Notes: generated from the sequence alone by a model not told the origin. Shown: positions 3,383 to 54,901, counted from the stretch's first letter. The stretch is 64,000 bases of DNA from Deltaproteobacteria bacterium (GCA_020633895.1 JACKCT010000011.1:3607-67606); one strand, 5' to 3'. Program-made: numbers and translations.

Positions 3383-3585
3383 TTTGGTGATCCAAAGATA
3401 GTATTCTTTCCGGTGACCGATTATCGCACAACGCCACTTGCCGTGGGAAAAGGAAATCGACGGGGCATCGCGAATTTTCCTTCCTCTTGCGCCCGCCGCG
3501 CCAATCGCCCAAACTGCTTGTGTCTTCACGATCTTCGCCGTGAACGATGATTCAATCTCCCGGAAAACACCGACAGGACGCGCGC

Positions 3586-6744: not shown

Positions 6745-7794
6745 GTGACGACAAACCGCGCCAAGAAAATCGCGTTCGCCGCGTTGGCGGTGGCGGCGGC
6801 CCTCGTCGGCGCGGAGCTGATCCTGCGCGCCGTGACGCCCCCGATCGACCAAAATTACAGCCTCAAAGTTTATGACGGTTTCCTCGAAGGCCACACCGGC
6901 CACCAAGCCGACCACGATCTGTTCTGGCGCCTGACGCCGGGCTTTCGCGGCGTCTGGGACAGCACCGAAATCCGCGTCAACCAACTCGGCCTGCGCGGCG
7001 AGGACTTCCCCGCCTATCGGGTCTCCGGCGAGTTTCGCCTCCTCTCCCTGGGCGAGTCGGGCACCTTCGGCGTCCGCACCCCCGAGGAACAAACCTACAA
7101 CGCCCAACTCGAAGCGCTGCTCAACGCCCGAGGCGACGGCGTGCGCTACCGCGTCATGAACGCGGGCGTGGCGTCGTACACATCGTTTCAAGGCCGCAAA
7201 TATTTCGAGATGGAGGGACGCAAGCTCGAGCCGAACGTGGTGCTCGTCTACTTCGGCCAGAACGACAATCTGCCCACCTACTTCGAGGATAAGCTGACAA
7301 TCACCAACGCCTTCGGCCTGCCCACCTACGGCCGGGGCATGACCGACGCGGAGATCTGGCGGGCGCGGCACCGGGCCGGGGATGTGCGTCGCGGGTTAAT
7401 GAAATCGGCGCTGTATCGCAATTGGGCGGCGTTTGTGCTGTGGATCGAACACGGCGTGCGCGGACGCCCCGTCGAGCCCACGCCCCGCGTTCCGCCGGAG
7501 GATCGGCGCGAGAATTACCAGGCCATCGACCGCTTGGCGAAAGGCATCGGCGCGCGCGTGCTCTACTTGATCACGCCCTATTTCGACCAGCCCGTCCCAC
7601 TGCCCGATGGATTCGGTCCCGGCTCGACGCACCACGTCTGCGACCTTTGGACCGGCATCCGCCGTGAGGGCCAGGACTATCGCGAGCTGTTCTCGGACGA
7701 TGTGCATCCCACGTCGCTCGGCCATCGTCTGATCGCCGAGACCATCGCCGAATGCCTGGCCGATCAGGGGCTGCTGCCGACAACCCGCGAATAG
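6745..7794 (+). CDS. SGNH/GDSL family hydrolase
   Basis: LSLGESGTFG is a GDS(L) block I with the catalytic Ser. DDVHPTSLGH is the DxxH block V. N-terminal TM/signal anchor. Confidence 0.7.
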   Translation: MTTNRAKKIAFAALAVAAALVGAELILRAVTPPIDQNYSLKVYDGFLEGHTGHQADHDLFWRLTPGFRGVWDSTEIRVNQLGLRGEDFPAYRVSGEFRLLSLGESGTFGVRTPEEQTYNAQLEALLNARGDGVRYRVMNAGVASYTSFQGRKYFEMEGRKLEPNVVLVYFGQNDNLPTYFEDKLTITNAFGLPTYGRGMTDAEIWRARHRAGDVRRGLMKSALYRNWAAFVLWIEHGVRGRPVEPTPRVPPEDRRENYQAIDRLAKGIGARVLYLITPYFDQPVPLPDGFGPGSTHHVCDLWTGIRREGQDYRELFSDDVHPTSLGHRLIAETIAECLADQGLLPTTRE

Positions 7795-9467
7795 AGATAC
7801 GTCGCCTCCGGCCCCAGGTCGAAGGAATAACGGCGCACGAACGCGGGGTAAGTGAACGCTTTGTCCTCGGCGAATCGGCGCGACAGAGGGCGTTTGGCGA
7901 GGGCGGCTTCGTAGGCGTCGCGCGTCGCCTCGTCCATGGCGATGTAGTCCGTGTCGGCGTCGTTCAGGTCCGCCGCGAATCCGTGCATCACGCGTGTGTC
8001 GTCGATATCAGGCGGTACGGGGATCTCCCGCCCTTCCAAATACCCCACGGACACCGGCGCATCGTCGGGGGCCAACGTGCGGACAAAGGCGTTGAGACGT
8101 TCGCGCGGGTCCGTCTCGAAGGCGACGATCAAAGCCGCCGTCCGCGCCGCCATCGACAGCACCACTAGCGCCGCCAACACGCGCCCGGCCAAACGCCAAC
8201 GTCGCGGGGATTCCAGCGCCAACCAACGCACCCCCACCGCCAACACCGGCAACAGCAGAAGCGTGGGCAGCACCAGGTCGTATCGCTCGATGCGCCGCCA
8301 GAAAAACGGAAACCAACTCACATAGGTCAGCAGATACGCCCCCGCCGCCGCCGCGAACGCCCCCGCGAATTTCAACGACGGATCGGCGCGACGAGGCGCG
8401 GCCGGGTCGCGAAACCATCGCCGCCGGATCGATGCGACGAAAACGCCGAGAATGATCAGAGCCGGCAACCCACCCAGGTTGTCGCGGATTTGGTCCAACC
8501 CGGCCGCCAGATTGGTCGCCACGCCGACCGCGATCTCCCCCGGTCCCAGGCGTCGGTTCTGCATGGCCAGCTCGCTCTGGTACTTGGGATTGATGTTCTC
8601 CGCGTGCAGGTAGTGATCGATGTGAGAGCGATTGAAGGGCCGGTCGATGCTTAAGGTCCCCGCGATCGTGACGATAAACGCCGCCGCCCCCACCCCAACG
8701 CACGCCCACCAACGCCGCCTCCATCGCGACGTGCGCCAGGTCATCGAAAGGCCCGCGCGCGCCGGAACCGCGATCGCCACCAACGCGGGCGCCAGACCCA
8801 AATGGTTTTCCTTCACCGCCGCCGCCACGCCGCCGCATGCCGCCAAAAGCGCGATGTCCGCCATTCGTTCGGTGAACAGGTAGCGGCAGAAGAACGTCGC
8901 CGCCAGCAGACTCCAAATGAGCGTCAACGGGATGATCGACTCGGTGTGATTCCAGAAAACGTACGTCGCGTCGACGGCGATGAACGCCAACGCAATCAGC
9001 ACGACTCCCGGCGGAATGTGCCGACGAAGCAAAAGCCCCATCAGGCCGACGGCCAGCGCGCCCAGAACGGCGTTGGTCCAGCGGATCGCGGGGAAAAGGC
9101 GGGCGTTGGTATGCCAGTAACGGTTGGGATTGTCCGCGTCGGACGGGGATTGCGACGGCACGCCGAAGCGGGCGATCAACGCGGCGGCCGGGCGGTAATG
9201 CAAAAACCCGACGGCCGAATACTCGCGCGGACCCTCCATCCCGTCCGTGTTCAAAAATGTCGCGAGCTGCGTGGAGAAGGGAAGGTAGCCCTCGTAATCG
9301 GGCGCTCCCAGGTCGTTGCCCCAAACATTGGCCACGAACGACGCCAGCACCAGCAACGCCAGCATGCAAAAATGCCGTGGCCGCCAAGGGCCGGATACGT
9401 CGCCGACGTGGGGTGCGTCGGGCCGATTATCGGAGTCGCGATTTTCCAAATCGCCCGAGTTTACCAA
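7764..9467 (-). CDS. Polytopic membrane protein, putative GT-C fold glycosyltransferase (PMT/ArnT-like)
   Basis: More than 10 predicted TM helices with large periplasmic loops and a C-terminal soluble domain. Overlaps the 3' end of the GDSL gene by about 30 bp (convergent). Start may instead be Met35 at 9365. Confidence 0.4.
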   Translation of the reverse strand: MVNSGDLENRDSDNRPDAPHVGDVSGPWRPRHFCMLALLVLASFVANVWGNDLGAPDYEGYLPFSTQLATFLNTDGMEGPREYSAVGFLHYRPAAALIARFGVPSQSPSDADNPNRYWHTNARLFPAIRWTNAVLGALAVGLMGLLLRRHIPPGVVLIALAFIAVDATYVFWNHTESIIPLTLIWSLLAATFFCRYLFTERMADIALLAACGGVAAAVKENHLGLAPALVAIAVPARAGLSMTWRTSRWRRRWWACVGVGAAAFIVTIAGTLSIDRPFNRSHIDHYLHAENINPKYQSELAMQNRRLGPGEIAVGVATNLAAGLDQIRDNLGGLPALIILGVFVASIRRRWFRDPAAPRRADPSLKFAGAFAAAAGAYLLTYVSWFPFFWRRIERYDLVLPTLLLLPVLAVGVRWLALESPRRWRLAGRVLAALVVLSMAARTAALIVAFETDPRERLNAFVRTLAPDDAPVSVGYLEGREIPVPPDIDDTRVMHGFAADLNDADTDYIAMDEATRDAYEAALAKRPLSRRFAEDKAFTYPAFVRRYSFDLGPEATYLYSRVVGSSP

Positions 9468-21181: not shown

Positions 21182-21534
21182 CCTAACGCACTCCTCGTCG
21201 ACCCGCGGCCCCATCGCCGCGCCGATCGCCCCAAGGCAAAACCAAAACCCATGCCAAACACGCCACGGCGTCTCAAACCCTGAATTGACGCAGGTTTTCA
21301 CGAACCGGAAAGGGAAATCGCGAAGGAGCCGAAAGGCGGAGTGTTCGATTATCGGTCAGCGACTATTCGAAAATCGGAGACGATACCGATCTTCGAATAG
21401 TGACACCCTTTCGACACGCGCTGTCACGAATTTTTCCTTGTCCCATGCGGCGCGCGATGCCAATAATAGCTGGACTCTCGAAAATCACGGCGGCATTCGG
21501 GGCGCCGCCGGTCGACAGCAAAAGGATGCGAACG

Positions 21535-23937: not shown

Positions 23938-26112
23938 TCAATCCGGGTCGCAGGGCCCGTCGCAGAACTGGTCGACTTCGCCGTCTTCGATGAGCGTGAT
24001 GATCTGGTCGGCGACGTTGTCCAGCAGATTCATATTGTAATGCACCCCGTTCTCCGAAGACGGCGGCACATTCTCCTCGGGCGGATATTTGCCGTCGGCG
24101 ATGGGCAGCGCGTACTGCGTGTAGACCGTTTCGGTCGTCGGGGCGAACGTCGCGTCCAGGCCCCAGACCCGCTCCACCGCCGGGACAAGCTGCTTGGCCC
24201 CCACCGAACGCGCCAGCATGCGCGTGACCATATTCGGCACTTGGGAATCTCCGATCGCCTCCTGGAAGATGAAGATCCGGTCCGTCGGCGAATCGTCATA
24301 GGGATACTCGAGGATGAGCTGCCCCAGGTTGATCGGGTCGGAGAAATCGAACAGCGACTGGGCGCCGGAGATGAAGATCTGCTGGGCGAGGGGATCGCGA
24401 TATTTCACGTCCAGCACCAGCTTGATCGGCGTATACACAATGGAACGCACCAGCATATTCGACCAGGACGCCCCCGGCACCGCCAGCACGCCGCGCGTGA
24501 TGTCCCGCGAAATGGACACCAGGGAACTGCCCTGAATGCCGCCCAGGCTCACGCCGTAATAGTAGACGTCCTCGCCGTTGAACATCGGCGCGCCGTCATG
24601 CACGCGAATCTGATCGTCCTGCAAAATGCCCTGCTTGCCCAATTCGATGAGCGTCAGGTTGTTGACCAGGGATTGGGCCAGGCGGTCGGTGACGATATGG
24701 ATGTTGTTCAGGTCCGGGACGATCCCGTCGATGATCGCATCCAGGTCGCCGCCGGACAGGCCGATCCAGTCGGTCGCGAAAAGAATCACGCCCGCTTCCT
24801 GGGCAAACTCGTGAATGACTCGCGTCGTGGAACCGCCGTGATGAAGGTAGCCGCTGCCGGTGCCGAAGATGCCGTGGCCGAAGATGGCCATGGGCAACGA
24901 ATCGCCCTGCTCGGCGACCTTGGGGATCACGATTGTGAAGGGATACTCGCCGTCTTCGCTCCGGCGAAGGGGGTTGTGGTCCGCGTCCCAGACCAGCTCG
25001 TTGTCCGAGTTCAGGAAATGGGGCACGTAAAAGCGGCCCTCGACGATGCGCGCCACATTTTCGTTCGGGTTGTCCTCGACCTCGTCGATGACGTACGTGA
25101 ACCCGCCGCCGGTGTCGGCCTGATCGAAGACCTCCTGGCGCATCTGAGAGATGGGGCCGAGCACGTATTGGACGCTGGCGACCTGAATATCGAAGGCCAG
25201 CAGCAGGTCATCGCGCGCGAAACCGGCCTTTTCCTCCAAGGTATCGAACATCTCTTCATAACGATCGCGCAGGCCTTCCAACTCGGGCGAGGTGGTGACG
25301 ATGCCGTCGCGCAGATAGTCGAAGCCCTGGGAGCGCGGCAGGGGATCGCGCTTGTCGTCCTTGACCTCGTTGGTCAGCACCACCGCGTAGCGTCCCCCCA
25401 TTTTCAGCGGCACCATCGGGCGGATGATGAGGGCATAGCGACCGAATTTGAGGGATTTTCGGTTGGCGTCCATCTCGATCATGATCGGATGCCGCTCGCC
25501 GGTCATCAGGTCGATGACGGCGATGGGGAAGTCACTCTCCAGGGATTTTTCGAACTCGTCCTGGCCCAGCAGCCAGCGGCGCTGAATGTCCTTGCCGAAG
25601 TGAATCAGGATCGGCGAGGACGGCGGCGTGCCGTCGGCGTAATTCAGCGGCGTCATGTCGAAGGCCGGGTTGTTGCCCGTATCGACAAACGAACTCTCCA
25701 GATGCAGCCGCAAACCGGTGGGCGTGGTCTCGTCCTCGACCATGTAATAAGTGTTGGGGTAGGGAAGCTGGCAGTCCTCGGAGGTCGCCAGGGGATTGCA
25801 TCCCTCGGGAACTTCGAAGGCGACCGGCGGGATCGTCGTTGTGGTGGTCGTGGTCGTGGTGGTGACGACGGTCGTGGTCGTGGTTGACGTATCGTCGTCG
25901 TCATCGTCGTCCATGGTGTCGTCGTCGGCCGTGTCATCGTCGACGGTGTCGTCATCCGACGTGTCGTCGTCCGCGGCGACGTCATCGTCCGAGGAATCGT
26001 CGTCGTCATCGTCCCCGCCGCAGGCCACGGCCGCGGACAGGATCAGCGCCAAGGCGAGCGCCAAAAGCACAAATCGCAGTCCAAATGGAAGGTGTCGGGT
26101 GGAAGAGTGCAT
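23938..26112 (-). CDS. Secreted alpha/beta-hydrolase-fold lipoprotein with poly-Asp and poly-Thr linkers
   Basis: Signal and lipobox SAAVACGG, D-rich about 50 aa, then TSTTTTTVVTTTTTTTTTTIPP. Nucleophile elbow YYYGVSLGGIQG (GxSxG). Paralog of 39008-41113 with shared blocks CNPLATSEDCQLPYP, ILIHFGKD, GRYAVVLTNEV and a C-terminal CDGPCDPD. Confidence 0.6.
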   Translation of the reverse strand: MHSSTRHLPFGLRFVLLALALALILSAAVACGGDDDDDDSSDDDVAADDDTSDDDTVDDDTADDDTMDDDDDDDTSTTTTTVVTTTTTTTTTTIPPVAFEVPEGCNPLATSEDCQLPYPNTYYMVEDETTPTGLRLHLESSFVDTGNNPAFDMTPLNYADGTPPSSPILIHFGKDIQRRWLLGQDEFEKSLESDFPIAVIDLMTGERHPIMIEMDANRKSLKFGRYALIIRPMVPLKMGGRYAVVLTNEVKDDKRDPLPRSQGFDYLRDGIVTTSPELEGLRDRYEEMFDTLEEKAGFARDDLLLAFDIQVASVQYVLGPISQMRQEVFDQADTGGGFTYVIDEVEDNPNENVARIVEGRFYVPHFLNSDNELVWDADHNPLRRSEDGEYPFTIVIPKVAEQGDSLPMAIFGHGIFGTGSGYLHHGGSTTRVIHEFAQEAGVILFATDWIGLSGGDLDAIIDGIVPDLNNIHIVTDRLAQSLVNNLTLIELGKQGILQDDQIRVHDGAPMFNGEDVYYYGVSLGGIQGSSLVSISRDITRGVLAVPGASWSNMLVRSIVYTPIKLVLDVKYRDPLAQQIFISGAQSLFDFSDPINLGQLILEYPYDDSPTDRIFIFQEAIGDSQVPNMVTRMLARSVGAKQLVPAVERVWGLDATFAPTTETVYTQYALPIADGKYPPEENVPPSSENGVHYNMNLLDNVADQIITLIEDGEVDQFCDGPCDPD

Positions 26113-38871: not shown

Positions 38872-39007
38872 GTTGCCCCTTGGCGAATGAAATTCTTGGT
38901 CGCCTTCCTGTCGCCAGACCGGGCAATTGAGATCCCCGCCGCCTTTGCGCTAGAATCCCCGCTTAGATTTTTCTTTTTGACTTGGGGCGAGCACGGAGGG
39001 CGTGTCG

Positions 39008-43260: not shown

Positions 43261-43292
43261 TGTTTTTGCGGAATTTAAGGGAGCCGACGACG

Positions 43293-43922
43293 ATGGCTTG
43301 GACGACGAAAACCTGGATCTTGACCTTGGCCCTGTTGCTGGCCCTTGGCGCCCTGAGCCTGGGATGCAAAAGCGGCGACGACGATGACGACGATTCGGTG
43401 GCCGATGACGACACCGCCGATGACGACACGACCGACGATGACACCGCGGACGACGACACATCCGATGACGACACTTCCGACGATGACACGACGGACGACG
43501 ACACCGGTGACGACGACACGGTAGAAACGGTGACGTACGACTTCCCGCTCATCCTCGAGTTTCGCAACACGGCCCAGCTTCATCTGGAAGTCACCGGCGA
43601 CGCCATCGAGGGCTCCTTCACCGCCGCCGAGGGCTACGGAAACGAGTTCATCCCCGCGAACACCGAACTTTCCGGCGAAGGCAAGCTCATGACCTTCGAA
43701 GAGGCCAAATACGAGATGTTCACGTTGGAGTTTTCCGGCGGACCGGTGACGGACGGGCCGTGCGGCGCCGAGACGGTGAACTACGCGCTGACGCTCAACC
43801 ACCAGATCGGTCAGACCGAACTGAACGGCGGCATCACCTGCCGATGCGGCGACGACCTGCGTTACAAGGGAATGCTGCGCATCCAGACCGGTGTGTATGA
43901 AGGCGGCGACGACGACGAATAG
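43293..43922 (+). CDS. Small lipoprotein with poly-Asp tether
   Basis: AAGGGA RBS then ATG. MAWTTKTWILTLALLLALGALSLGCKSG, then DDDDDDSVADDDTADDDTTDDDTADDDTSDDDTSDDDTTDDDTGDDDT. About 130-aa C-terminal domain. Confidence 0.55.
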   Translation: MAWTTKTWILTLALLLALGALSLGCKSGDDDDDDSVADDDTADDDTTDDDTADDDTSDDDTSDDDTTDDDTGDDDTVETVTYDFPLILEFRNTAQLHLEVTGDAIEGSFTAAEGYGNEFIPANTELSGEGKLMTFEEAKYEMFTLEFSGGPVTDGPCGAETVNYALTLNHQIGQTELNGGITCRCGDDLRYKGMLRIQTGVYEGGDDDE

Positions 43923-47257: not shown

Positions 47258-49132
47258 ATGCGTCAACACCGCTTGCGTCAGCGGGTCTGTCTGGTCTGGT
47301 GCCTGTTTCTAATATTTGGATTTGTCGGATGCGGAGGCAGCGACGACGGCGACGATGTCAGCCGTTCGGGCGCCGACGCCAACGACGGCCTGGCATGCGT
47401 TGATTGCTCGGGAACGCCGGGCGACGACGATGACGGCCCGATCATCGACGATGACGATGACGACGTGATCGACGACGACGTTTCGGACGACGATTTGTCC
47501 GATGACGATACGGTCGCCGATGACGACGACACCGACGACGACGATGACGATGACGATGACCTCCCGTCGACGACCACCACGACCATCCCCGCCGGAACCA
47601 CCACCACGGTGCCGGCCACCACGACCACCACAACCAAAAAGCCGACGACGACCACGACGGTTAAGCCCACAACCACGTCCACGACCACCACGACGCTCCC
47701 GCCGGGGCAGGACGCCACGCCGTCCATGAAATTCGGGACGGTGCATTTCAACTACTATTACGGCTTCCCCGGTCAGTATAAGGGCAACACCTTCTACAAG
47801 GACCACGACTGGATGGCCGACACCATCGAGCTGGCGATCATCGGCTACGGTGATCCTGGCATGGATATGTCCTGGGACTACCTGCGTCAGCAGGATAAGG
47901 TGGGCAACTGGCTGCCCTGGCGTCTGGCTCAGATTTTCCCGACCAACGATACGGCCGGATCCTGCGGCAGTCCGTCCGTCGGCAACGAAGATCCGCGCTT
48001 CGATGACTGGATCGACGAGTTCGACGACTTCCTGTCCGACTATCCCGAGTACGGCGACGGCGAAACCTGCTTCCTGCACGCTAAATACGACGGCGACATC
48101 ACCGCCCTGTGGCACGTGCGCGGCTGCGAGGTGGACGTGCCGCAGAAGGGCTACCTGGACTCGGCCCGCAATATGTACCAGGCCCGCATCAAGACACTCG
48201 TGTGGGACGAGTACGGCTGGCTGATCGACCTGCAGTCCGACTGCGGCAAGGACTACACCGCCTGGGTGGGCGAACAGTCGATCCTCGACGGCTACGGCGG
48301 TATCGGCTTCGACAACATCGGCGGCCCGGCCGAAGGCGGCTATTACCTGCCCGAGGACACCAGCGAAGTGGATATCGCCGAGATCGCCAACTCCGTCGAA
48401 TTCAACGCCTCCAAGCTCGACGACTGGTGGATCGAGACCCGCGACGAGGTCCTCAAATACACGCAGAACCACATGCGCACCATCGACTCCAACGCCAAGA
48501 TGGTGGTCAATGCGGGATCGTACTGTTCCTGGGAGCCCGGGTTCTACTCGATCCTGGGCAGCGATGCGCCGGGTCTGGGCATCTGGTGCGAATTCGCGCT
48601 GCATCACCCCTCGTGGGGCACGCTGACGACCGAGGACCGCCTCGAGGCGCTGATCAAAATCTCCGACGAACTGGCTGACCAGGACCGCTTCCAGGCGGTG
48701 GAGTATTACTACGACCGGGCCGGCGCCGCGGTGGGCACCGAAGAGGTGCTTTATTACCTGGCCGCCTATTACGTCTACAAGCAAAAAGACGACGTGTTCA
48801 TCCTGCGCCCCTATAGCTGGGAGCCCTACAAGGCCTTCAAGGACACGATCTGGTTCGACGTCCTGGGCCGGGATCTGGGCGAGCCCGACGGTCTGGGCAA
48901 GAAGCTCAACAACGGCATCTTCGAACGCACTTTCGAGAACGACCAGGGCGTCAAGGCGCGGGTGCTGGTGCGTGTCGACGGCAATGCATCGTCCAAGAGC
49001 TTCAACCTGGGCGGCGACTACTGCCGGGTGGAGATCGACAACTCGCTCACGCCCGTAAGCGGCTGGATCACCTTCAACAGCGGCGACGGCCACATCCTCC
49101 TGGAAAAAGGCCCCGGCGGCATCGACTGCTAG
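47258..49132 (+). CDS. Lipoprotein with poly-Asp and poly-Thr mucin-like linkers plus a C-terminal domain of unknown function
   Basis: LIFGFVGCGG. D-rich tract DDDDDVIDDDVSDDDLSDDDTVADDDDTDDDDDDDDD. TTTTTIPAGTTTTVPATTTTTTKKPTTTTTVKPTTTSTTTTTLPP. About 450-aa globular domain. Confidence 0.6.
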   Translation: MRQHRLRQRVCLVWCLFLIFGFVGCGGSDDGDDVSRSGADANDGLACVDCSGTPGDDDDGPIIDDDDDDVIDDDVSDDDLSDDDTVADDDDTDDDDDDDDDLPSTTTTTIPAGTTTTVPATTTTTTKKPTTTTTVKPTTTSTTTTTLPPGQDATPSMKFGTVHFNYYYGFPGQYKGNTFYKDHDWMADTIELAIIGYGDPGMDMSWDYLRQQDKVGNWLPWRLAQIFPTNDTAGSCGSPSVGNEDPRFDDWIDEFDDFLSDYPEYGDGETCFLHAKYDGDITALWHVRGCEVDVPQKGYLDSARNMYQARIKTLVWDEYGWLIDLQSDCGKDYTAWVGEQSILDGYGGIGFDNIGGPAEGGYYLPEDTSEVDIAEIANSVEFNASKLDDWWIETRDEVLKYTQNHMRTIDSNAKMVVNAGSYCSWEPGFYSILGSDAPGLGIWCEFALHHPSWGTLTTEDRLEALIKISDELADQDRFQAVEYYYDRAGAAVGTEEVLYYLAAYYVYKQKDDVFILRPYSWEPYKAFKDTIWFDVLGRDLGEPDGLGKKLNNGIFERTFENDQGVKARVLVRVDGNASSKSFNLGGDYCRVEIDNSLTPVSGWITFNSGDGHILLEKGPGGIDC

Positions 49133-49247
49133 CCGGGTAGTCCCGGCGGACTAGGAGATGCTTTGCATCTCTGACGCCGGCGCGTCGTTGGATGATCCAT
49201 GGAAGGGCGTGGCTTCGCTCCAGCCGCTTCAGAGCCGCAACCAACGG

Positions 49248-49279
49248 GGGTGCCACACTTTTACGAGAACCAAGTTCGA
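49248..49279 (-). repeat. 32-nt hairpin plus AGTGTGGCACCC element (copy 3, inverted)
   Basis: The reverse complement reads TCGAACTTGGTTCTCGTAAAAGTGTGGCACCC. Confidence 0.7.
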
Positions 49280-49384
49280 GGAAAGGTGTGAATTTTCAGA
49301 ATCGCGACTAACCAATCAGAGCCGCGAACGGCTTGCCTTCGCCAGGGCTACGGCGAGGCAAGCAACTCGCGGCTCGGGCGGACC

Positions 49385-50623
49385 CTACGAGCCCCCCGGC
49401 CCTCCGCGTCGAACGTCGGCGATCACCAATCCCAAAAACACGAACTGGGCGAAAACGAATCGATCGTAGAAAACGAAACCGCCCACCGAGGCGTAGCCTT
49501 GCGTCGGGTCGTGCCAGGGAAAAAACAGGATCGCCACAAATACCGCCAGGGCGATCAACCGGCCCCGCGACCATGAACCCGAGGCGGCGTCCATCGCCCA
49601 AAACGCCGCGACCGGCACGGCCCAGATGAACTGCTGCACCCACCAATACTTCGCTCCCAGCGGATAGGCCGCCGCAAAGACGGCCAGCAGCGCCATCGGA
49701 CCCGACCGGCCCCGCCGCCCCATCCACCGGGCCAGACCGATACCCAGCCCCACCATGGCCAAGGTCAATCCCGGCCCGATCGCGCGAATGAACGACGGAG
49801 CGTCGGCGAGCAGCGGATGCCGCCCGAGGCGCCCGTCAAACAGGCGCAGCAACGCGGCATGCACCGATTGGTTGACGATGTAGGGATTGCCCATCTCGCT
49901 TTTGTAGGCCACCACCCGTGACCACGACGTCCACCACTCGGACGGCAGAAACGCCAGCCCCGCCAGCCCGCCGATCGCCGCCAGACCCACGCCCCAGGCG
50001 ACGGCCTTGCCGTAGCGCCGATGATCCAGCGCCAGCGCGAAGGGGACGAGAAACGCCGGATAGATCTTCCACCAGATCGCGAAGGCGAGCGCCGCCCCGG
50101 CCGCGATGGGCGTCTTGTCGTGTCGAAAGACGAAGACCAGCGCCAGCGCCATCACGAACAGATCCGCCTGCCCGACGGCCAGGTGGTGGATCACCGGCGC
50201 GCTGACCATCCACGGCGCGAACGCGAGGGCGAGCGTCCACGGCGCGCGGGCCGCGCCGGGGTGCGTCCGGGCTAGGAGGATGAAGAGGAGGACCATCGTG
50301 ATCTGGGACAGCAGCGTCCAGGCAATCAGCGCGATTTGGATGGATGTCCACGCCAGCGGCCGCGTCCAGACCAGGCTGATGGGGGAGTAGAGAAATCGCG
50401 TCATGTGGGGATAAAGGTCTTCGGATTCGGCGGGTTCGGATTTCAAGTAGGGGTCCGCTCCGGCCGCCACGCGCTGGGCTCCGTAGTAGTAGGCGCTGAA
50501 ATCCACGCCGAACGGATAGGCCCGCATGAATCCCAATAGCATCAAGCCGGTCAGGCCGACGAACGCGGCCAGGCCCGCCGCCGCGACGAACCATCGGGGC
50601 GTCGATGCGTCCGAAGGGGTCAT
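49385..50623 (-). CDS. GT-C glycosyltransferase, DUF2029/GT87-like (PimE-like mannosyltransferase family)
   Basis: About 10 TM helices. N-terminal periplasmic loop DFSAYYYGAQRVAAGADPY is typical of DUF2029. Confidence 0.5.
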   Translation of the reverse strand: MTPSDASTPRWFVAAAGLAAFVGLTGLMLLGFMRAYPFGVDFSAYYYGAQRVAAGADPYLKSEPAESEDLYPHMTRFLYSPISLVWTRPLAWTSIQIALIAWTLLSQITMVLLFILLARTHPGAARAPWTLALAFAPWMVSAPVIHHLAVGQADLFVMALALVFVFRHDKTPIAAGAALAFAIWWKIYPAFLVPFALALDHRRYGKAVAWGVGLAAIGGLAGLAFLPSEWWTSWSRVVAYKSEMGNPYIVNQSVHAALLRLFDGRLGRHPLLADAPSFIRAIGPGLTLAMVGLGIGLARWMGRRGRSGPMALLAVFAAAYPLGAKYWWVQQFIWAVPVAAFWAMDAASGSWSRGRLIALAVFVAILFFPWHDPTQGYASVGGFVFYDRFVFAQFVFLGLVIADVRRGGPGGS

Positions 50624-50716
50624 GAAAAATCCGATCCGAAAAGGAATGCCGATCCGGTGACGATATCACGCCCCTTTTCGACGCGCCACGCCCCGAAGCG
50701 GCGACCGACGCGGGCG

Positions 50717-52426
50717 ATGATGAACGCACGGAATCTGTGCTATGTTTCGCCGGACTTTCCATTCGAGAACTCGCGGCGCCCGCCCGTCGGGCCCATCCGC
50801 TTAGGGGACGACGACTTGGACGCGGCCTCCAGCTCCCGCCGGTGGATCCTCGCCGCCCTGTTGGTGACGGGGGTCGTTCTGCGGTTTTGGTGTTTTTCCG
50901 GCCTGGTGGGTTCGGACGACCTGAGCTACGCCCACAATGCCCACGCCCTGCTGGAAGGCGCCTATCAACCGATCGCGTCTCCCCTATCCAACCGCATCGG
51001 CCACATCGGGCTCATCGCGTTTTTCTTCGGCGTGCTCGGCGTCAGCGAGTACGCGCTGATTGCCTCGCCTCTCCTGTTCTCGATGCTGCAAATCGTTCTG
51101 GCCTATGCCTTCCTCCATCGCATCGGACGACCGCGAGCGGCGCTGATCGCCGCGGGATATCTGGCCGTGGCGCCCTGGGACGTGGTGTTCGCGACGCGCG
51201 GCTACCCGGACCTGCCGTCCGCGGCGCTGTTTGCCGCGTTCGTCACGCTCCTGCTCGTTGCGGCCACGGCGCGGGGCCGCTCACGCACGGCGATCGCCTT
51301 CGGGGCCGGTCTGTGCCTGGGAGCGGCGTATCTGGTCAAGGAAATGGTCATCCTCCAGATGCTCTATTGGGCGCCGGCGCTGCTGTGGGTCGCATGGCGT
51401 GAAAAACAACTGCGAATTCGCGATCTGGCGGCGGCCGGCATCGGCGCGGTGTGCGTCGTTTTGGGCGAGGGAATCGGGTACTACGCGGCCACCGGCGATT
51501 TCCTTTTTCGGTTTCACGGCGTGGACACGGGCTACAACCAAACGGTCTGGTCCGGCACGGCGCTCTATCAAAACCTCGTCCAACGGGTCTTCGTGATCGG
51601 GCCCCGGTCGCTGCTGTTCGACAACGTCTACCTGATGGGCTTCGCGCTCGGACCGATCCTCTACCTCGGCACGTCGTGGAAAGACCGGCCGATGCGCCTG
51701 ATCCTCGGCTGGCTCCTCTTCGACATCGCCTACTTCGTCGCCGGGTCGTCGTCCCTGACCGCGTACAACCCCCTGCCCCTGTTTCGCCGGTACATGCTGA
51801 TGATGGCGTTCCCGGCGGCGCTGCTGATCGGCGTGGGCCTGGATCGGTGGTGGGCTGACCGGCGCGACCCGGCGCGGGCCAAGGCGTTCGGGACAATGTT
51901 GGCGGCGGCGGCCGTCGTCATTGCGCTGGGAGCGGTCGTCAACCGGCAGCTCCTCATCGGCGCGGCGGCGGGGTGCGTCTTCGCGGCGGCGATCGTCGCC
52001 TTCGTTCGGCGTCCGACCGTCTCGGTCGCGCTCGCGGCGGCGGGGTCGGTGCTCCTGCTGGGCGCGGGGCTCAAGGAAGCCTACCCCACGCGCTACCACA
52101 GCGCCTGGGCCGAACACCAACTGCACGCCGCCCTGACCGACAGCACCCGCCCCGTCTTCGCCGACGGACGCACGATTGAAATCCTCCGATTCTTCAACGG
52201 CTATCGGGACATGGATCGCTACCGGGACTTGTTCCGCGCGACGCGGGACGACGTGCGCAACGCCCTGGTCGTCGTCAACGAGCCGCGCGTGGCGTTCGCC
52301 CAGGAACACTACGGCGACAAGCTGCCCGAGTGGATTCGCGGCGGGCCGCCGCCAGGATTTCGTCTGGTGTCCCAAGTCGGCGGCGACAAGCCCGGCGAGG
52401 CGATTTTCCTTTTCTACGCTCCCTGA
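50717..52426 (+). CDS. GT-C glycosyltransferase, PMT/ArnT-like (GT39/GT83 family)
   Basis: Polytopic membrane protein. First periplasmic loop SDDLSYAHNAHALLEG carries a DD/DE-type motif. C-terminal soluble domain. Transcribed divergently from the GT87-like gene. Start could be 50657. Confidence 0.5.
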   Translation: MMNARNLCYVSPDFPFENSRRPPVGPIRLGDDDLDAASSSRRWILAALLVTGVVLRFWCFSGLVGSDDLSYAHNAHALLEGAYQPIASPLSNRIGHIGLIAFFFGVLGVSEYALIASPLLFSMLQIVLAYAFLHRIGRPRAALIAAGYLAVAPWDVVFATRGYPDLPSAALFAAFVTLLLVAATARGRSRTAIAFGAGLCLGAAYLVKEMVILQMLYWAPALLWVAWREKQLRIRDLAAAGIGAVCVVLGEGIGYYAATGDFLFRFHGVDTGYNQTVWSGTALYQNLVQRVFVIGPRSLLFDNVYLMGFALGPILYLGTSWKDRPMRLILGWLLFDIAYFVAGSSSLTAYNPLPLFRRYMLMMAFPAALLIGVGLDRWWADRRDPARAKAFGTMLAAAAVVIALGAVVNRQLLIGAAAGCVFAAAIVAFVRRPTVSVALAAAGSVLLLGAGLKEAYPTRYHSAWAEHQLHAALTDSTRPVFADGRTIEILRFFNGYRDMDRYRDLFRATRDDVRNALVVVNEPRVAFAQEHYGDKLPEWIRGGPPPGFRLVSQVGGDKPGEAIFLFYAP

Positions 52427-52562: not shown

Positions 52563-53108
52563 ATGAGCCTGGTCGACGATCTGGCGGACGCGACGTTGCA
52601 GGACCGCAAGGGCAATCCGGTGCGCCTGGGGGACAACTGGGCCGACAAACCCGCGGTCGCCGTCTGGGTCCGACACTTCGGATGCATGTTCTGTCGCGAG
52701 CAGGCGCGAGAACTACACCAACACCAAGGCGAAATCGAAAAGCTCGGCGGCCGCCTGGTCATCATCGGTTGCGGCAAGCCCGAGCACGCCGACTGGTTCG
52801 CCGAGGACGTCCAATACGACGGGCCTATCCTGGTTGACATGAAGCGCCAAACCTACAAAACGGCCGAGATGAAAAACTCTATCGGCGCCACATTTTCCCT
52901 GCACACGGTAAAAAACGCCGCACGAGCCCTCAAATCCGGCGCACGCCAACACAAGACCATGGGCGACCCCTGGCAACAGGGCGGGGCGATGGTCATCGGA
53001 CCGGGCAATACGCTGCATTACAAGCAGATCAGTGATCAGGCCGGCGACCATGCCCCCGTCGGGGAATTGCTCGACGCCTTGAAAAAAGCCGCCGCCGCGA
53101 CCGCCTGA
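52563..53108 (+). CDS. Peroxiredoxin-like thioredoxin-fold protein (AhpC/TSA_2 family)
   Basis: VWVRHFGCMFCREQ carries the FGCxxC redox motif typical of PF13911. Confidence 0.6.
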   Translation: MSLVDDLADATLQDRKGNPVRLGDNWADKPAVAVWVRHFGCMFCREQARELHQHQGEIEKLGGRLVIIGCGKPEHADWFAEDVQYDGPILVDMKRQTYKTAEMKNSIGATFSLHTVKNAARALKSGARQHKTMGDPWQQGGAMVIGPGNTLHYKQISDQAGDHAPVGELLDALKKAAAATA

Positions 53109-53114
53109 GGAACC

Positions 53115-53936
53115 ATGACGCAACGCAAAGTCAAAACCAGTTATCCCCATCCGGACACGGCCGCCCCGTCGGGCGACCGGCCCGTGGCCCTCGTCACCGG
53201 CGCGTCGTCGGGCATCGGCAAGGCGTTGTGCTTGGTCCTGGGACGGCACGGTTACGAAGTGGCGATGATCGCCCGGGGGCAGGCGGCGTTGGAAAACGCG
53301 GCCGAGGAGGTGGAGGCGGCCGGCGGCGTGCCGATGGTCGTCCCCGCGGACGTGACCAATCGCAACGCCCACGAGGCGGCGCTGGATACCATCCTGGCCC
53401 GGACCGGGCGCGTGGACGTGGCGGTGGCGGCGGCCGGGCTCGGCTATGCCACTCCCGCCGAGAGCCTGGATCTGGAACGCCTGCAACGCATGATCGACGT
53501 GAACGTGACCGGGTTCGTGAACACCATCGGCCTGGTGCTGCCCCACATGGTCGAGCGGGACACGGGGCACATCGTGGGCTTGTCGAGCCTGTCGGGCTAT
53601 CGGGGTCTGCCGGGCAACGGCATGTACTGCGGCACCAAGGTCTTCAATCGCGTGTTTATGCAGAGCCTGCGCATGGATCTGGCCAACACGGGCGTCAAGA
53701 CGCTGTGCGTGTGCCCCGGTTGGGTCGCCACGCCCATGACCCGAGGCAACAAAGCCAAGATGCAGTTCGTACTGGACCCGGACAAACTGGCGACGAAAGT
53801 CTACAAGGCCATGGTCGCGGGCAAATCGCTGTTGGCCGTGCCTCACGGACTGGCGGAAATGACGCGCTTCGGCCTGCCCATGCCCGACACGCTCTACGAT
53901 CTGTTCGTCGGCCGCCGACGCATGCCCTTCGCCTAA
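53115..53936 (+). CDS. SDR family oxidoreductase
   Basis: TGASSGIGKA, then YCGTK (YxxxK). Confidence 0.7.
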   Translation: MTQRKVKTSYPHPDTAAPSGDRPVALVTGASSGIGKALCLVLGRHGYEVAMIARGQAALENAAEEVEAAGGVPMVVPADVTNRNAHEAALDTILARTGRVDVAVAAAGLGYATPAESLDLERLQRMIDVNVTGFVNTIGLVLPHMVERDTGHIVGLSSLSGYRGLPGNGMYCGTKVFNRVFMQSLRMDLANTGVKTLCVCPGWVATPMTRGNKAKMQFVLDPDKLATKVYKAMVAGKSLLAVPHGLAEMTRFGLPMPDTLYDLFVGRRRMPFA

Positions 53937-53963
53937 AACCGACGCATCATTAAGGAAGCTTCC

Positions 53964-54785
53964 GTGTCCGACGAGACCACGACAAAACCCGACGAGGCCG
54001 CTCAGGCGCCCGCCCCGTCGTCGATGAAGATGCCGCCCCACCCCAAGGCGGTGGCGATGATCACCGGCGCGTCCTCGGGCATCGGCAAGGCGCTGGCGCT
54101 CAAATTCGGCCGGGAAGGCTACGATGTGGCGATGCTCGCCCGGCGGCCGGGGCCGCTTGCCGACGCGGCGGCCCAGGTGCGCGACTACGGGGCCGAGGTG
54201 TGGGAATTTCCCGTGGACATCACCGATCGGGACGCCTTCGCCAAGGTCTTCGACGACCTGCTGGCCAAGACCGGCGGGCGGCTGGATGTGTTCGTGGCCA
54301 ACGCGGGCATCGGCCCGGCGACCCCGGCCAAGGCCTTCGACCTGGAGGCGGCCCAACAGACCATCGATCTGAACTGTTCGGCCTTCGTGCAGGGCATCGC
54401 CATGGCCATGCGGCCGCTACGCAAAATCGGGCGCGGGCATCTGGTGGCGATCTCGAGTCTGGCGGCGTTTCGGGGCATCCGCAAAAGCGCGGTGTATTGC
54501 GCCAGCAAGGCGTTGGAGAGCGCGTTCATGGAAAGCCTGCGCCTGGACCTGCGCGGCACGGACATTCATTGCCTGACGGTGCATCCGGGGTATGTGGACA
54601 CGCCGATTCACGACGAGAAAACCAAGAAGAAGCTGCCCCACCTGGTCCCCGCCGCGACGGCCGCCGACCTGATCTACAAGGGCATCGAGACGCGCGCCAA
54701 CGAGGTCAACTTCCCCGCCCCCCTGGTGGCGATGGCCCGCCTGGGACAGATGCTGCCCAACGCGCTGTTCGATCGTTTTTCCTAG
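53964..54785 (+). CDS. SDR family oxidoreductase (tandem paralog)
   Basis: TGASSGIGKA, then YCASK. Confidence 0.7.
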   Translation: MSDETTTKPDEAAQAPAPSSMKMPPHPKAVAMITGASSGIGKALALKFGREGYDVAMLARRPGPLADAAAQVRDYGAEVWEFPVDITDRDAFAKVFDDLLAKTGGRLDVFVANAGIGPATPAKAFDLEAAQQTIDLNCSAFVQGIAMAMRPLRKIGRGHLVAISSLAAFRGIRKSAVYCASKALESAFMESLRLDLRGTDIHCLTVHPGYVDTPIHDEKTKKKLPHLVPAATAADLIYKGIETRANEVNFPAPLVAMARLGQMLPNALFDRFS

Positions 54786-54817
54786 AAAATCTTCGCGACT
54801 TGCGCAGGCCGGAGATG

Positions 54818-54901
54818 TGCGAGAGGGGGGACTTGAACCCCCACAACCTTACGGTCACAAGATCCTAAGTCTTGCGTGTCTGCCAATTCCACCACTCTCG
54901 C
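54818..54901 (-). tRNA. tRNA-Leu (anticodon TAG), type II with long variable arm
   Basis: Reverse complement GCGAGAGTGGTGGAATTGGCAGACACGCAAGACTTAGGATCTTGTGACCGTAAGGTTGTGGGGGTTCAAGTCCCCCCTCTCGCA. Acceptor stem GCGAGAG/CTCTCGC. Anticodon loop CTTAGGA. T-arm GGGGGTTCAAGTCCCCC. CCA not encoded. Confidence 0.85.

What the first reader, a model, noticed from the sequence alone, without database searches (positions are those of the whole stretch)
47258..52426. Poly-Thr mucin-like linkers on the poly-Asp lipoproteins sit next to a divergent pair of GT-C glycosyltransferases (PMT/ArnT-like and GT87-like); a third GT-C lies next to another member
47258-49132 and 23938-26112 carry long Thr runs (TTTTTIPAGTTTTVPATTTTTTKKPTTTTTVKPTTTSTTTTT; TSTTTTTVVTTTTTTTTTTIPP), which are classic O-glycosylation linker sequences. 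Directly downstream of 47258-49132 are two divergently transcribed polytopic GT-C enzymes (49385-50623 and 50717-52426), one of them PMT/ArnT-like. In Actinobacteria a GT39 Pmt O-mannosylates Thr-rich segments of exported lipoproteins during Sec translocation. A third GT-C-like membrane protein (7764-9467) abuts the ASST-like poly-Asp lipoprotein. Together this suggests a lineage-specific protein O-glycosylation system serving these tethered exoproteins.
Basis: inference. Interest (0 to 1): 0.6.

Follow-up and report, generated by a model that had tools for sequence, protein, structure and literature searches.

The report
Paired membrane glycosyltransferases beside Thr-linker lipoprotein
An uncultured bacterium carries a conserved pair of membrane sugar-transferring enzymes (one ArnT-like, one PimE-like) next to a lipoprotein with a mucin-like threonine linker, but only this one neighbourhood links the enzymes to that protein, so protein glycosylation is plausible and not shown.

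Summary
The sequence features are real. Genes 47258-49132 and 23938-26112 encode lipobox proteins with a poly-Asp tether followed by a poly-Thr tract. Gene 49385-50623 (-) is a solid GT87/PimE-like enzyme. Gene 50720-52426 (+) is a divergent PMT_2-type GT-C. The two are transcribed divergently, and the pair recurs in 3 independent genomes. A fourth genome has the PMT_2-like ortholog without it.

The functional reading is only partly supported. By profile, the PMT_2-like enzyme is closest to ArnT (GT83, E 9e-14). It shows no similarity to solved GT39 Pmt enzymes, no PMT or PMT_4TMC domains, and an ArnT-like C-terminal soluble domain. Adjacency to a Thr-linker gene occurs only in this genome, and the genes are convergent. 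It is about what chance gives (p~0.1), because poly-Asp proteins (9 of ~41 genes) and GT-C genes are both frequent here. The 'third GT-C' (7764-9467) is weakly supported.

Two known systems keep protein O-glycosylation possible (~0.25): actinobacterial Pmt plus GT87 PimE, and the streptococcal GT-C systems.

My best reading is a lineage-restricted, two-step periplasmic glycosylation module that uses polyprenyl-phosphate sugars on an unresolved envelope acceptor, more likely a lipid-linked glycan.

Noticed in passing: exoproteins ending in poly-Asp plus a terminal Cys-Gly-Cys/Ser (GCGC, GCGS or RCGC).

The parts
47258..49132 (+). Lipoprotein of 624 aa. It has a signal peptide with lipobox FVGC (Cys25), a poly-Asp tether (nt 47420-47560), a mucin-like Thr/Pro linker (nt 47561-47707) and a 470-aa C-terminal domain of unknown family.
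   Evidence: ORF and translation. The C-terminal domain has no Pfam, NCBIfam or PDB hit. AF2 failed. An NCBI assembly of the same species breaks its contig at window 47546, inside the poly-Asp tract.
49385..50623 (-). GT87 (PimE-like) polytopic GT-C glycosyltransferase, 412 aa. It is convergent with the Thr-linker gene and divergent from the PMT_2-like gene.
   Evidence: PF09594 at 79 bits. The profile matches the PimE structure 9dm5 at E 4e-15 over nearly the whole length. Window residues D41, Y45, Y79, Q152, K186 and W328 correspond to the PimE essential residues D58, Y62, Y92, Q163, K195 and W319.
50624..50719 (.). 96-bp divergent intergenic region shared by the two GT-C genes. It is presumed to hold the promoters.
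   Evidence: Gene coordinates. No sigma-70 consensus match was found. There is no sequence conservation with L001 or L003.
50720..52426 (+). Divergent PMT_2-type GT-C glycosyltransferase, 568 aa, ArnT-like. It has about 12-13 hydrophobic segments and a C-terminal soluble alpha/beta domain of about 115 aa. The first-loop motif is GSDDLSY.
   Evidence: PF13231 at 34 bits. The start codon follows the NCBI protein P0001. The family profile matches ArnT 5ezm at E 9e-14. D66 is conserved in 97%, Y70 in 94% and D164 in 87% of 151 family members. Hydropathy.
52563..54785 (+). Same-strand downstream genes: an AhpC/TSA_2 redoxin-like protein (52563-53108) and two paralogous classical SDRs (53115-53936, 53964-54785). 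They may be co-transcribed with the PMT_2-like gene. This context is not conserved in other genomes.
   Evidence: Pfam. The two SDRs are 40% identical paralogs. A second assembly of the same species, L013, has the same arrangement. L001 and L003 have different genes here.
23938..26112 (-). Second lipoprotein with a poly-Asp tether (nt 25891-26019) and a poly-Thr tract (nt 25825-25890). It has a lipase-like C-terminal domain. It is a paralog of 39002-41113, which has poly-Asp but no poly-Thr.
   Evidence: The two paralogs are 41% identical over 631 aa. Weak VolA/Pla-1 and lipase hits.
7764..9467 (-). Polytopic membrane protein of 567 aa, a possible GT-C. It is divergent from the ASST-like poly-Asp lipoprotein 9747-11396.
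   Evidence: No Pfam hit. hhalign against the PMT_2-like family gives probability 67%, E 5e-5, with the catalytic Asp/Tyr and KE motifs aligned. Weak WsfD hit at E 0.0055.

Best explanation
The core of the locus is a conserved, divergently transcribed pair of polytopic GT-C glycosyltransferases. One is an ArnT-like (PMT_2/GT83-like) enzyme and the other a PimE-like (GT87) enzyme.

Both enzymes have their catalytic Asp in the first extracytoplasmic loop. Both are therefore expected to take a sugar from a polyprenyl-phosphate-sugar donor at the periplasmic face of the inner membrane and add it to an envelope acceptor. The pair most likely acts in two steps on the same product, with one enzyme starting and the other extending.

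The pair is not a dedicated partner of the neighbouring Thr-linker lipoprotein. That adjacency is particular to this genome and is of the order expected by chance.

The acceptor is unresolved. I rate a lipid-anchored or lipid-linked envelope glycan (LPS lipid A/core, another glycolipid, or a surface polysaccharide) as more likely than protein Ser/Thr.

Shown here: family assignments, catalytic residues, pair conservation, lack of conserved linkage to Thr linkers. Inferred: donor type, periplasmic site, sequential action, acceptor class.
For: - GT87 assignment: PF09594 at 79 bits. The profile matches the PimE structure 9dm5 at E 4e-15.
- All six residues whose mutation abolishes PimE activity are conserved.
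- PimE's acceptor-contact residues D55, D160 and Y161 are not conserved, and H321/H322 are replaced by QQ. This points to a different acceptor.
- PMT_2-like assignment: PF13231 at 34 bits. The family profile matches ArnT 5ezm at E 9e-14 from the first TM helix into the start of the periplasmic domain. The next hit is AglB at 1e-4, and there is no Pmt1/Pmt2 hit.
- The equivalents of ArnT's first-loop Asp and its D158 are conserved (D66/D67 and D164).
- The divergent pair is present in three independent genomes with 63, 48 and 52% GC.
- In L003 the PMT_2-like gene heads a same-strand run of a polyprenyl-phosphate glycosylphosphotransferase (Bac_transf), UDP-glucose dehydrogenase and two sugar-nucleotide epimerase/dehydratases. 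That is glycan-pathway context.
- All characterised GT83 enzymes I know of act on LPS (own knowledge).
- GT-C genes are frequent in this genome: four candidates, one of them only weakly supported, in ~73 kb. Poly-Asp proteins are frequent too, 9 of ~41 genes. Adjacency therefore carries little weight.
Against: - No acceptor evidence of any kind exists.
- GT87 PimE also extends protein O-mannose in mycobacteria.
- GT-C enzymes of a family first known from teichoic-acid glycosylation (YfhO) proved to be protein O-glycosyltransferases for poly-Ser/Thr regions in streptococci. Similarity to a lipid-modifying enzyme therefore does not exclude a protein acceptor.
- GT-C units lie beside poly-Asp lipoproteins in 4 of 5 opportunities across the window, L001 and L005. 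This is a post-hoc count with p~0.05, and one of the four rests on the weakly supported candidate 7764-9467.
- The L003 polysaccharide context comes from a single genome.
- In L005 the PMT_2-like ortholog lacks the GT87 neighbour, so obligatory cooperation is not proven.
Confidence: 0.5

Rival explanations
1. The pair is a protein O-glycosylation system. The ArnT-like enzyme puts the first sugar on Thr/Ser of exported tethers (the poly-Thr tracts, perhaps also the DDD-T/S units of the poly-Asp tethers) during or after Sec export. The GT87 enzyme then extends it, as Pmt and PimE do in Actinobacteria.
For: - Mucin-like Thr tracts follow the lipid-anchored poly-Asp tether in two proteins, and one of them lies next to the pair.
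- The actinobacterial system is an initiating GT-C plus the GT87 PimE (PMC12757957).
- In streptococci, poly-Ser/Thr disordered regions, including that of the lipoprotein PrsA, are glycosylated by GT-C enzymes. The S. mutans Pgf cluster encodes two GT-C enzymes together with their Thr-rich substrates (PMC12041528).
- The pair has been found only in genomes that also show poly-Asp-tethered proteins where enough sequence is available (window, L001; the ortholog locus L005 also).
- In the tethers, the residue after an Asp run is Thr or Ser in 48 of 85 cases.
Against: - The initiating enzyme fails the tested GT39 features and is closest to ArnT.
- Adjacency to a poly-Thr gene is seen in 1 of 3 independent genomes, the genes are convergent, and the chance expectation is about 0.1.
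- The paralogs 23938 and 39002 differ in having poly-Thr, so the tract is an optional spacer.
- Several other GT-C genes in the same genome are equally good candidates.
- No donor synthase is nearby.
- Diderm bacteria usually O-glycosylate with PglL-type oligosaccharyltransferases (own knowledge).
Confidence: 0.25
2. The PMT_2-like enzyme is a true ArnT, that is, a transferase putting 4-amino-arabinose or a related cationic sugar onto lipid A. On this reading the GT87 gene is an unrelated neighbour.
For: ArnT is the nearest solved relative. 8 of 79 family relatives weakly match the ArnT NCBIfam model.
Against: - The window protein itself matches no ArnT model.
- Similarity to ArnT is detectable only at the family-profile level; the single sequence and the 3-sequence ortholog profile find no PDB relative.
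- There are no arnA-F genes in the window.
- The GT87 partner is conserved in three genomes, which argues for joint function.
- The tight ortholog group is tiny and separated from the rest of the family by a gap from E 1e-131 to 1e-55.
Confidence: 0.05
3. The two enzymes serve different acceptors and are kept side by side only by shared regulation. For example, one acts on a glycolipid and the other on a protein or a polysaccharide.
For: In L005 the PMT_2-like ortholog stands alone, between LepA and a VTC-like gene. A distant GT87 relative (P0007) has no PMT_2 neighbour.
Against: The divergent arrangement with a short spacer is kept across genomes that differ by 15% in GC. Both proteins have diverged to a similar degree (48/43% and 51/39% identity), as expected for co-inherited partners.
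Confidence: 0.1

Closest known systems
ArnT (CAZy GT83; Cupriavidus metallidurans structure 5EZM/5F15)
   Same: It is the best solved match of the PMT_2-like family profile (E 9e-14, about 425 aligned positions). The first-loop acidic motif followed by Tyr corresponds (SDDLSY against PDEGRY). The second Asp (D164 against ArnT D158) is conserved. Both have many TM helices followed by a C-terminal periplasmic domain.
   Different: Similarity appears only at the family-profile level. There is no match to the ArnT NCBIfam model and no arn operon. The enzyme is paired with a GT87 gene. The acceptor is unknown.
PimE (CAZy GT87; Mycobacterium abscessus structure 9DM5; PMC12041525)
   Same: Pfam GT87 is well above threshold. 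The profile match is E 4e-15 over nearly the whole length. The catalytic base and all residues essential for donor-phosphate binding are conserved.
   Different: The residues that contact the PIM acceptor are not conserved, and H321/H322 are replaced by Gln-Gln. The host is not an actinobacterium, and phosphatidylinositol mannosides are not expected there (own knowledge).
Actinobacterial protein O-mannosylation (GT39 Pmt + GT87 PimE + Ppm1; PMC12757957)
   Same: It has two periplasm-facing GT-C enzymes, one of them GT87. It acts on Thr/Ser-rich regions of Sec-exported proteins, including lipoproteins.
   Different: The first enzyme here fails the tested GT39 features. The two genes are adjacent here but not in mycobacteria (own knowledge). 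No Ppm1-type donor synthase was seen nearby. The host appears to be diderm (SurA-like and porin-like genes in the window).
Streptococcal GtrB/PgtC2 and Pgf (PgfS, PgfM1, PgfM2) glycosylation of poly-Ser/Thr disordered regions (PMC12041528)
   Same: GT-C enzymes outside GT39 glycosylate poly-Ser/Thr tethers of membrane-associated proteins, including a lipoprotein. The Pgf cluster holds two GT-C genes next to Thr-rich substrate genes.
   Different: Those enzymes belong to the YfhO family, which is not matched here. They work with an adjacent GT-A Und-P-sugar synthase, which is absent from this window. The hosts are Gram-positive.
Rhizobium RgtA-D (GT83 galacturonosyltransferases acting on LPS core and lipid A); from own knowledge, not tested here
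   Same: They are ArnT-family enzymes that use a polyprenyl-phosphate uronic-acid donor. The L003 locus places the PMT_2-like ortholog beside UDP-glucose dehydrogenase and epimerases, which could make such a donor.
   Different: That gene context is seen in one genome only.

Membership tests
GT39 protein O-mannosyltransferase (Pmt) | Match to the Pfam PMT domain (PF02366) | tested here: not met
   Only PF13231 PMT_2 (34 bits) and a weak STT3 hit were found. 28 of 79 family relatives match PF02366 weakly, but the window protein does not.
GT39 protein O-mannosyltransferase (Pmt) | C-terminal four-TM module (PF16192 PMT_4TMC) | tested here: not met
   No hit. The C-terminus is a soluble alpha/beta domain of about 115 aa after the last hydrophobic segment near aa 450.
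GT39 protein O-mannosyltransferase (Pmt) | Detectable similarity to solved Pmt1/Pmt2/Pmt4 structures | tested here: not met
   The 79-sequence family profile searched against all PDB chains finds ArnT, AglB and marginally TMEM260 (E 3.9). No Pmt appears at E<=10.
GT39 protein O-mannosyltransferase (Pmt) | Transfer of mannose from polyprenyl-P-mannose to Ser/Thr | not testable with these tools
   Needs biochemistry or glycoproteomics.
GT83 (ArnT-like) | Profile-level homology to ArnT across the TM core | tested here: met
   5ezm at E 9e-14, profile positions 20-444 against ArnT residues 33-498.
GT83 (ArnT-like) | Catalytic first-loop Asp and second Asp (ArnT D55 and D158 by published numbering, own knowledge) | tested here: met
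   D66/D67 align to ArnT PDE and D164 to ArnT LD(M). D66 is conserved in 97% and D164 in 87% of 151 family members.
GT83 (ArnT-like) | Match to the ArnT equivalog model (NF009784/PRK13279), and arn operon context | tested here: not met
   The window protein matches no NCBIfam family. There are no arnA-F-like genes in the window.
GT83 (ArnT-like) | Lipid A or LPS-core acceptor | not testable with these tools
   Needs lipid A/LPS mass spectrometry of mutants.
GT87 (PimE-like) | Pfam GT87 (PF09594) above the gathering score | tested here: met
   79.1 bits against a cut-off of 25, covering residues 77-319.
GT87 (PimE-like) | Homology to the solved PimE structure | tested here: met
   9dm5 at E 4.3e-15, profile positions 20-374 against PimE residues 33-368.
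GT87 (PimE-like) | Residues essential for PimE activity (D58, Y62, Y92, Q163, K195, W319) | tested here: met
   They align to window D41, Y45, Y79, Q152, K186 and W328. All are invariant in the 5-sequence alignment. The residue list comes from PMC12041525.
GT87 (PimE-like) | PimE acceptor-contact residues (D55, D160, Y161) and H321/H322 | tested here: not met
   D55 falls in a gap. D160 and Y161 align to Ala and Val. H321/H322 align to Gln-Gln. This is consistent with a different acceptor.
Streptococcal PgtC2/Pgf-type GT-C protein O-glycosylation | YfhO-family GT-C enzyme with an adjacent GT-A Und-P-sugar synthase | tested here: not met
   There is no YfhO hit for any of the three proteins and no GT2 gene in the window. 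A distant relative in L006 does follow a gene that, read by eye from its translation without a Pfam scan, looks like a GT2; its end overlaps the GT-C gene's start.
Streptococcal PgtC2/Pgf-type GT-C protein O-glycosylation | Ser/Thr-rich substrate genes encoded beside the GT-C genes | tested here: inconclusive
   True in the window. Not true in L001, L003 or L005.

The most novel reading that the evidence does not exclude
A diderm, non-actinobacterial lineage uses an ArnT-like GT-C as the initiating enzyme and a PimE-like GT87 as the extending enzyme. Together they O-glycosylate the Thr (and DDD-T/S) tethers of its many poly-Asp-anchored exoproteins. This would be a third, independently recruited kind of GT-C protein O-glycosylation, after GT39 Pmt and YfhO-type PgtC2/Pgf. 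It would belong to an unusual envelope-tethering system that also includes a C-terminal poly-Asp plus terminal Cys-Gly-Cys/Ser tag.
Probability: 0.25. Interest if true: 0.7.

Novelty: new member of a known kind. Interest (0 to 1): 0.4.

Why it matters
If the pair does glycosylate the tethers, ArnT-like enzymes could no longer be assumed to modify lipids. It would also give a compact two-gene module for testing how GT-C enzymes choose protein or lipid acceptors.

Even without that, the locus defines a rare, lineage-restricted ArnT-like/PimE-like pair. It draws attention to a lineage whose exported proteins are tethered by long poly-Asp tracts at either end, which I did not find described in the literature searches I ran.

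As it stands, the specific claim rests on one non-conserved neighbourhood.

Tried and rejected
- **Structure of the PMT_2-like protein.** The AF2 run could use only three sequences and gave pLDDT 47.8. That is too poor for a fold search, so none was run.
- **Structure of the C-terminal domain of 47258.** The single-sequence AF2 run gave pLDDT 32.5. Pfam at E<=5, NCBIfam and PDB phmmer also found nothing, so its family stays unknown.
- **Third word-indexed protein search.** Run with the 79-sequence alignment, it returned the same three proteins. I could therefore not obtain a deeper alignment for AF2, nor gene contexts for orthologs P0008 and P0010.
- **Scans of public collections.** The first metagenome scan found nothing. 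The second found L005 and L006. The genome scan found only L004, which is 100% identical to L001 and so not independent.
- **PDB searches with few sequences.** Single-sequence searches for the three GT-C proteins, and a 3-sequence profile for the PMT_2-like protein, found nothing useful. Only the deeper profile worked.
- **Poly-Thr as a frameshifted (GAC)n poly-Asp repeat: rejected.** The Thr codons are mixed ACC/ACG.
- **The 47258 gene as an artefact of joined contigs: rejected.** One NCBI assembly starts a contig at window 47546, inside the poly-Asp tract. However, the window is 99.85% rather than 100% identical to that assembly, so it is an independent assembly. The partial NCBI gene itself begins DDDDDLPSTTTTT. 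Gene 23938, which by the contig offset maps wholly inside a single NCBI contig, has the same poly-Asp then poly-Thr order. The full 624-aa product is nevertheless not on record elsewhere.
- **Homology between 7764-9467 and the GT-C at L001 1616-3307.** None was found.
- **Intergenic region of the pair.** No conserved motif and no promoter consensus were found.

Full report
**Source and setting.** The window has about 63% GC. It is an independent assembly of an uncultured bacterium that NCBI names 'Deltaproteobacteria bacterium'. It is 99.85% identical to contigs of GCA_020633875.1 and 99.4% identical to a contig of GCA_020440635.1. SurA-like chaperone genes and a porin-like gene suggest a diderm envelope.

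**The observation.**
- Gene 47258-49132 (+) encodes 624 aa. It has a lipobox (FVGC, Cys25), a poly-Asp tract (aa 55-101, 32 of 47 residues Asp) and a Thr/Pro linker (aa 102-150, 28 of 49 residues Thr).
- Gene 23938-26112 (-) has the same order: lipobox AVAC, poly-Asp, then TSTTTTTVVTTTTTTTTTTIPP.
- The Thr codons are a near-equal ACC/ACG mix, as in the rest of each gene. The tracts are therefore selected at the protein level and are not a DNA repeat or a frameshifted (GAC)n.
- Downstream of the first gene lie 49385-50623 (-) and 50720-52426 (+). They are divergent and 96 bp apart. The Thr-linker gene and the first of them are convergent, so they are not co-transcribed.
- Pfam gives GT87 (PF09594, 79 bits, cut-off 25) for the first and PMT_2 (PF13231, 34 bits, cut-off 26.1) for the second.

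**The GT87 enzyme.**
- A five-sequence profile matches the solved PimE structure 9dm5 at E 4e-15 over nearly its whole length.
- The PimE paper lists D58, Y62, Y92, Q163, K195 and W319 as residues whose mutation abolishes activity (PMC12041525). They align to window D41, Y45, Y79, Q152, K186 and W328, and all are invariant in the alignment.
- Residues that contact the PIM acceptor (D55, D160, Y161) are not conserved, and H321/H322 are Gln-Gln.
- I conclude it is an active polyprenyl-phosphate-sugar-dependent GT87 with a different acceptor.

**The PMT_2-like enzyme.**
- Single-sequence and three-sequence searches of the PDB found nothing.
- An exhaustive profile search of 1.84 billion cluster representatives found a tight ortholog group of only five other representatives (E down to 1e-131). 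After a gap to E 1e-55 comes a broad family of about 2,400.
- A 79-sequence family profile hits ArnT (5ezm) at E 9e-14 from the first helix into the start of the periplasmic domain. Archaeal AglB follows at 1e-4 and TMEM260 at E 3.9. No Pmt1, Pmt2 or Pmt4 appears.
- The first-loop motif GSDDLSY (D66 97%, Y70 94% conserved) aligns to ArnT PDEGRY, and D164 aligns to ArnT's second catalytic Asp.
- The window protein has no PF02366 or PF16192 hit and ends in a soluble alpha/beta domain, as ArnT does.
- It matches no NCBIfam model. Its relatives scatter weakly over archaeal STT3, LA_3751, ArnT and Agl23 models.
- It is therefore an ArnT-like GT-C. It fails the tested GT39 features and is not ArnT proper. 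NCBI's label 'glycosyltransferase family 39 protein' probably reflects only the PMT_2 domain (my inference).

**The 'third GT-C'.** Gene 7764-9467 has no Pfam hit even at E<=5. hhalign against the PMT_2-like family gives 67% probability (E 5e-5) over the first 240 residues. It aligns PDYEGY to SDDLSY and VKE to VKE. It is probably a GT-C, on weak evidence.

**Comparative context.**
- The divergent GT87/PMT_2-like pair recurs in L001/L002 (48% GC) and L003 (52% GC). L004 is 100% identical to L001 and adds nothing.
- In L005 an ortholog (45% identity) sits between LepA and a VTC-like gene, without GT87.
- The neighbours of the pair differ in every genome.
  - In the window they are the Thr-linker lipoprotein on one side and an AhpC-like gene plus two SDRs on the other.
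  - In L001 they are a 161-aa poly-Asp lipoprotein without poly-Thr and an unrelated 181-aa ORF.
  - In L003 there is a same-strand run of Bac_transf, UDP-glucose dehydrogenase and two epimerase/dehydratases.
- No poly-Thr tract occurs in L001, L003, L005 or L009.

**Is the adjacency meaningful?**
- The window holds seven lipobox+poly-Asp proteins: 995-3529, 9747, 21400-23862, 23938, 39002, 43173 and 47258. Two further proteins have C-terminal poly-Asp. That is 9 among about 41 genes, and only two have poly-Thr.
- A fourth GT-C lies about 9 kb beyond the window end, without a poly-Asp neighbour.
- At these densities, a poly-Thr gene next to a given gene unit is expected about 10% of the time, and a poly-Asp protein about 30-40% of the time.
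- Counting GT-C units beside poly-Asp lipoproteins across the window, L001 and L005 gives 4 of 5. This is suggestive (p~0.05) but post hoc, and one of the four rests on the weakly supported candidate 7764-9467.
- The paralogs 23938 and 39002 (41% identity over 631 aa) differ in having poly-Thr, so the tract is an optional spacer.
- No GT2 donor synthase, flippase or sugar-nucleotide gene is in the window.

**Known systems.**
- In Actinobacteria, GT39 Pmt starts and GT87 PimE extends O-mannose on exported proteins (PMC12757957).
- In streptococci, poly-Ser/Thr disordered regions, including that of the lipoprotein PrsA, are glycosylated by YfhO-type GT-C enzymes with a GT-A partner. The S. mutans Pgf cluster encodes two GT-C enzymes together with their Thr-rich substrates (PMC12041528). 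That family was first known from teichoic-acid glycosylation, so closeness to a lipid-modifying enzyme does not exclude a protein acceptor.

**Verdict.**
- The features are real, and the pair is a genuine, conserved, lineage-restricted two-enzyme module.
- That it serves the Thr-linker proteins is possible (about 0.25), but comparative evidence does not support it.
- I favour, at about 0.5, a two-step periplasmic glycosylation of an envelope glycan or glycolipid.
- The remaining probability is spread over ArnT-proper and independent-function readings.

**Failures and caveats.**
- Both AF2 runs gave unusable models, so no fold search was run.
- The third word-indexed protein search was unproductive.
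- Several exact-sequence look-ups failed, probably because the window differs slightly from the deposited assemblies or because start codons were called differently.
- One deposited assembly breaks its contig inside the poly-Asp tract of the 47258 gene. The join between the first 96 codons and the rest of the gene therefore rests on the window's own assembly.

Noticed in passing
window 13163-15322 (-), window 11526-13022 (-); L001 12543-14699 (+); L005 3435-7604 (+): Exoproteins with an ordinary signal peptide (no lipobox), seen directly for the two window proteins and the L001 protein, end in a long poly-Asp tract followed directly by a terminal G/R-C-G-C/S and the stop codon (...DDDDDDNSGCGS*...DDDTDAGCGC*...DDDDDDDQGCGC*...DDDDNGNGRCGC*). 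There is no hydrophobic helix after it. This occurs in three different organisms. It looks like a C-terminal mirror image of the N-terminal lipobox+poly-Asp tether and may be an undescribed anchoring or sorting tag. No NCBIfam model matches it.
   Followed up: partly
window 995-3529 (-), 21400-23862 (+), 9747-11396 (+), 39002-41113 (+), 43173-43922 (+); L001 4309-5886 (-), 8041-8526 (-); L005 16775-18409 (+): Lipobox Cys followed by 30-60 residues of poly-Asp, built largely of DDD-x-x units, is a lineage-wide tether. It is carried by unrelated enzymes (ASST-like, GH5 cellulase, lipase-like, beta-propeller-like). The residue after an Asp run is Thr or Ser in 48 of 85 cases.
   Followed up: partly
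window 47546 and about 28500: The deposited assembly GCA_020633875.1 breaks contigs inside Asp-rich low-complexity coding tracts. Contig JACKCU010000009.1 starts at window 47546, inside the poly-Asp tract of the Thr-linker gene. Contig JACKCU010000025.1 is inferred from its length to end near window 28500, inside a D/K-rich insert of an S41 peptidase lipoprotein (27027-28871). The window is 99.85% identical to these contigs, so it is a separate assembly.
   Followed up: partly
L009 2885-4591 (about 9 kb beyond the window end): A fourth GT-C (PMT_2, weak PMT; 568 aa) lies between Maf and an FGE-sulfatase-like lipoprotein. Neither neighbour has poly-Asp. GT-C genes are frequent in this genome.
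   Followed up: partly
window 44713-47097 (+): A 794-aa protein has a lipobox-like signal (LSAC) and many ankyrin repeats (Ank_2, 376 bits). An exported or tethered ankyrin-repeat protein is unusual for a free-living bacterium.
   Followed up: no
L001 1616-3307 (-) and 3542-4297 (+): Another GT-C-like membrane protein (hhalign 95.6% to the PMT_2-like family) is divergent from a lipoprotein with a short Asp-rich stretch (SSGDDDTNEDE) after its lipobox. This echoes the 7764/9747 arrangement in the window, although the two GT-C proteins are not detectably homologous.
   Followed up: partly
L006 8883-9935 (+) and 9932-11644 (+): A distant relative of the PMT_2-like enzyme (32% identity in the N-terminal part) directly follows a gene whose translation looks like a GT2 (read by eye, not scanned against Pfam) and whose end overlaps the GT-C gene's start. 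This is the classical donor-synthase plus GT-C arrangement that is missing from the window.
   Followed up: no
window 54817-54901 (-): A tRNA-Leu gene lies just after the two SDR genes. It marks the end of the plus-strand run that begins with the PMT_2-like gene.
   Followed up: no
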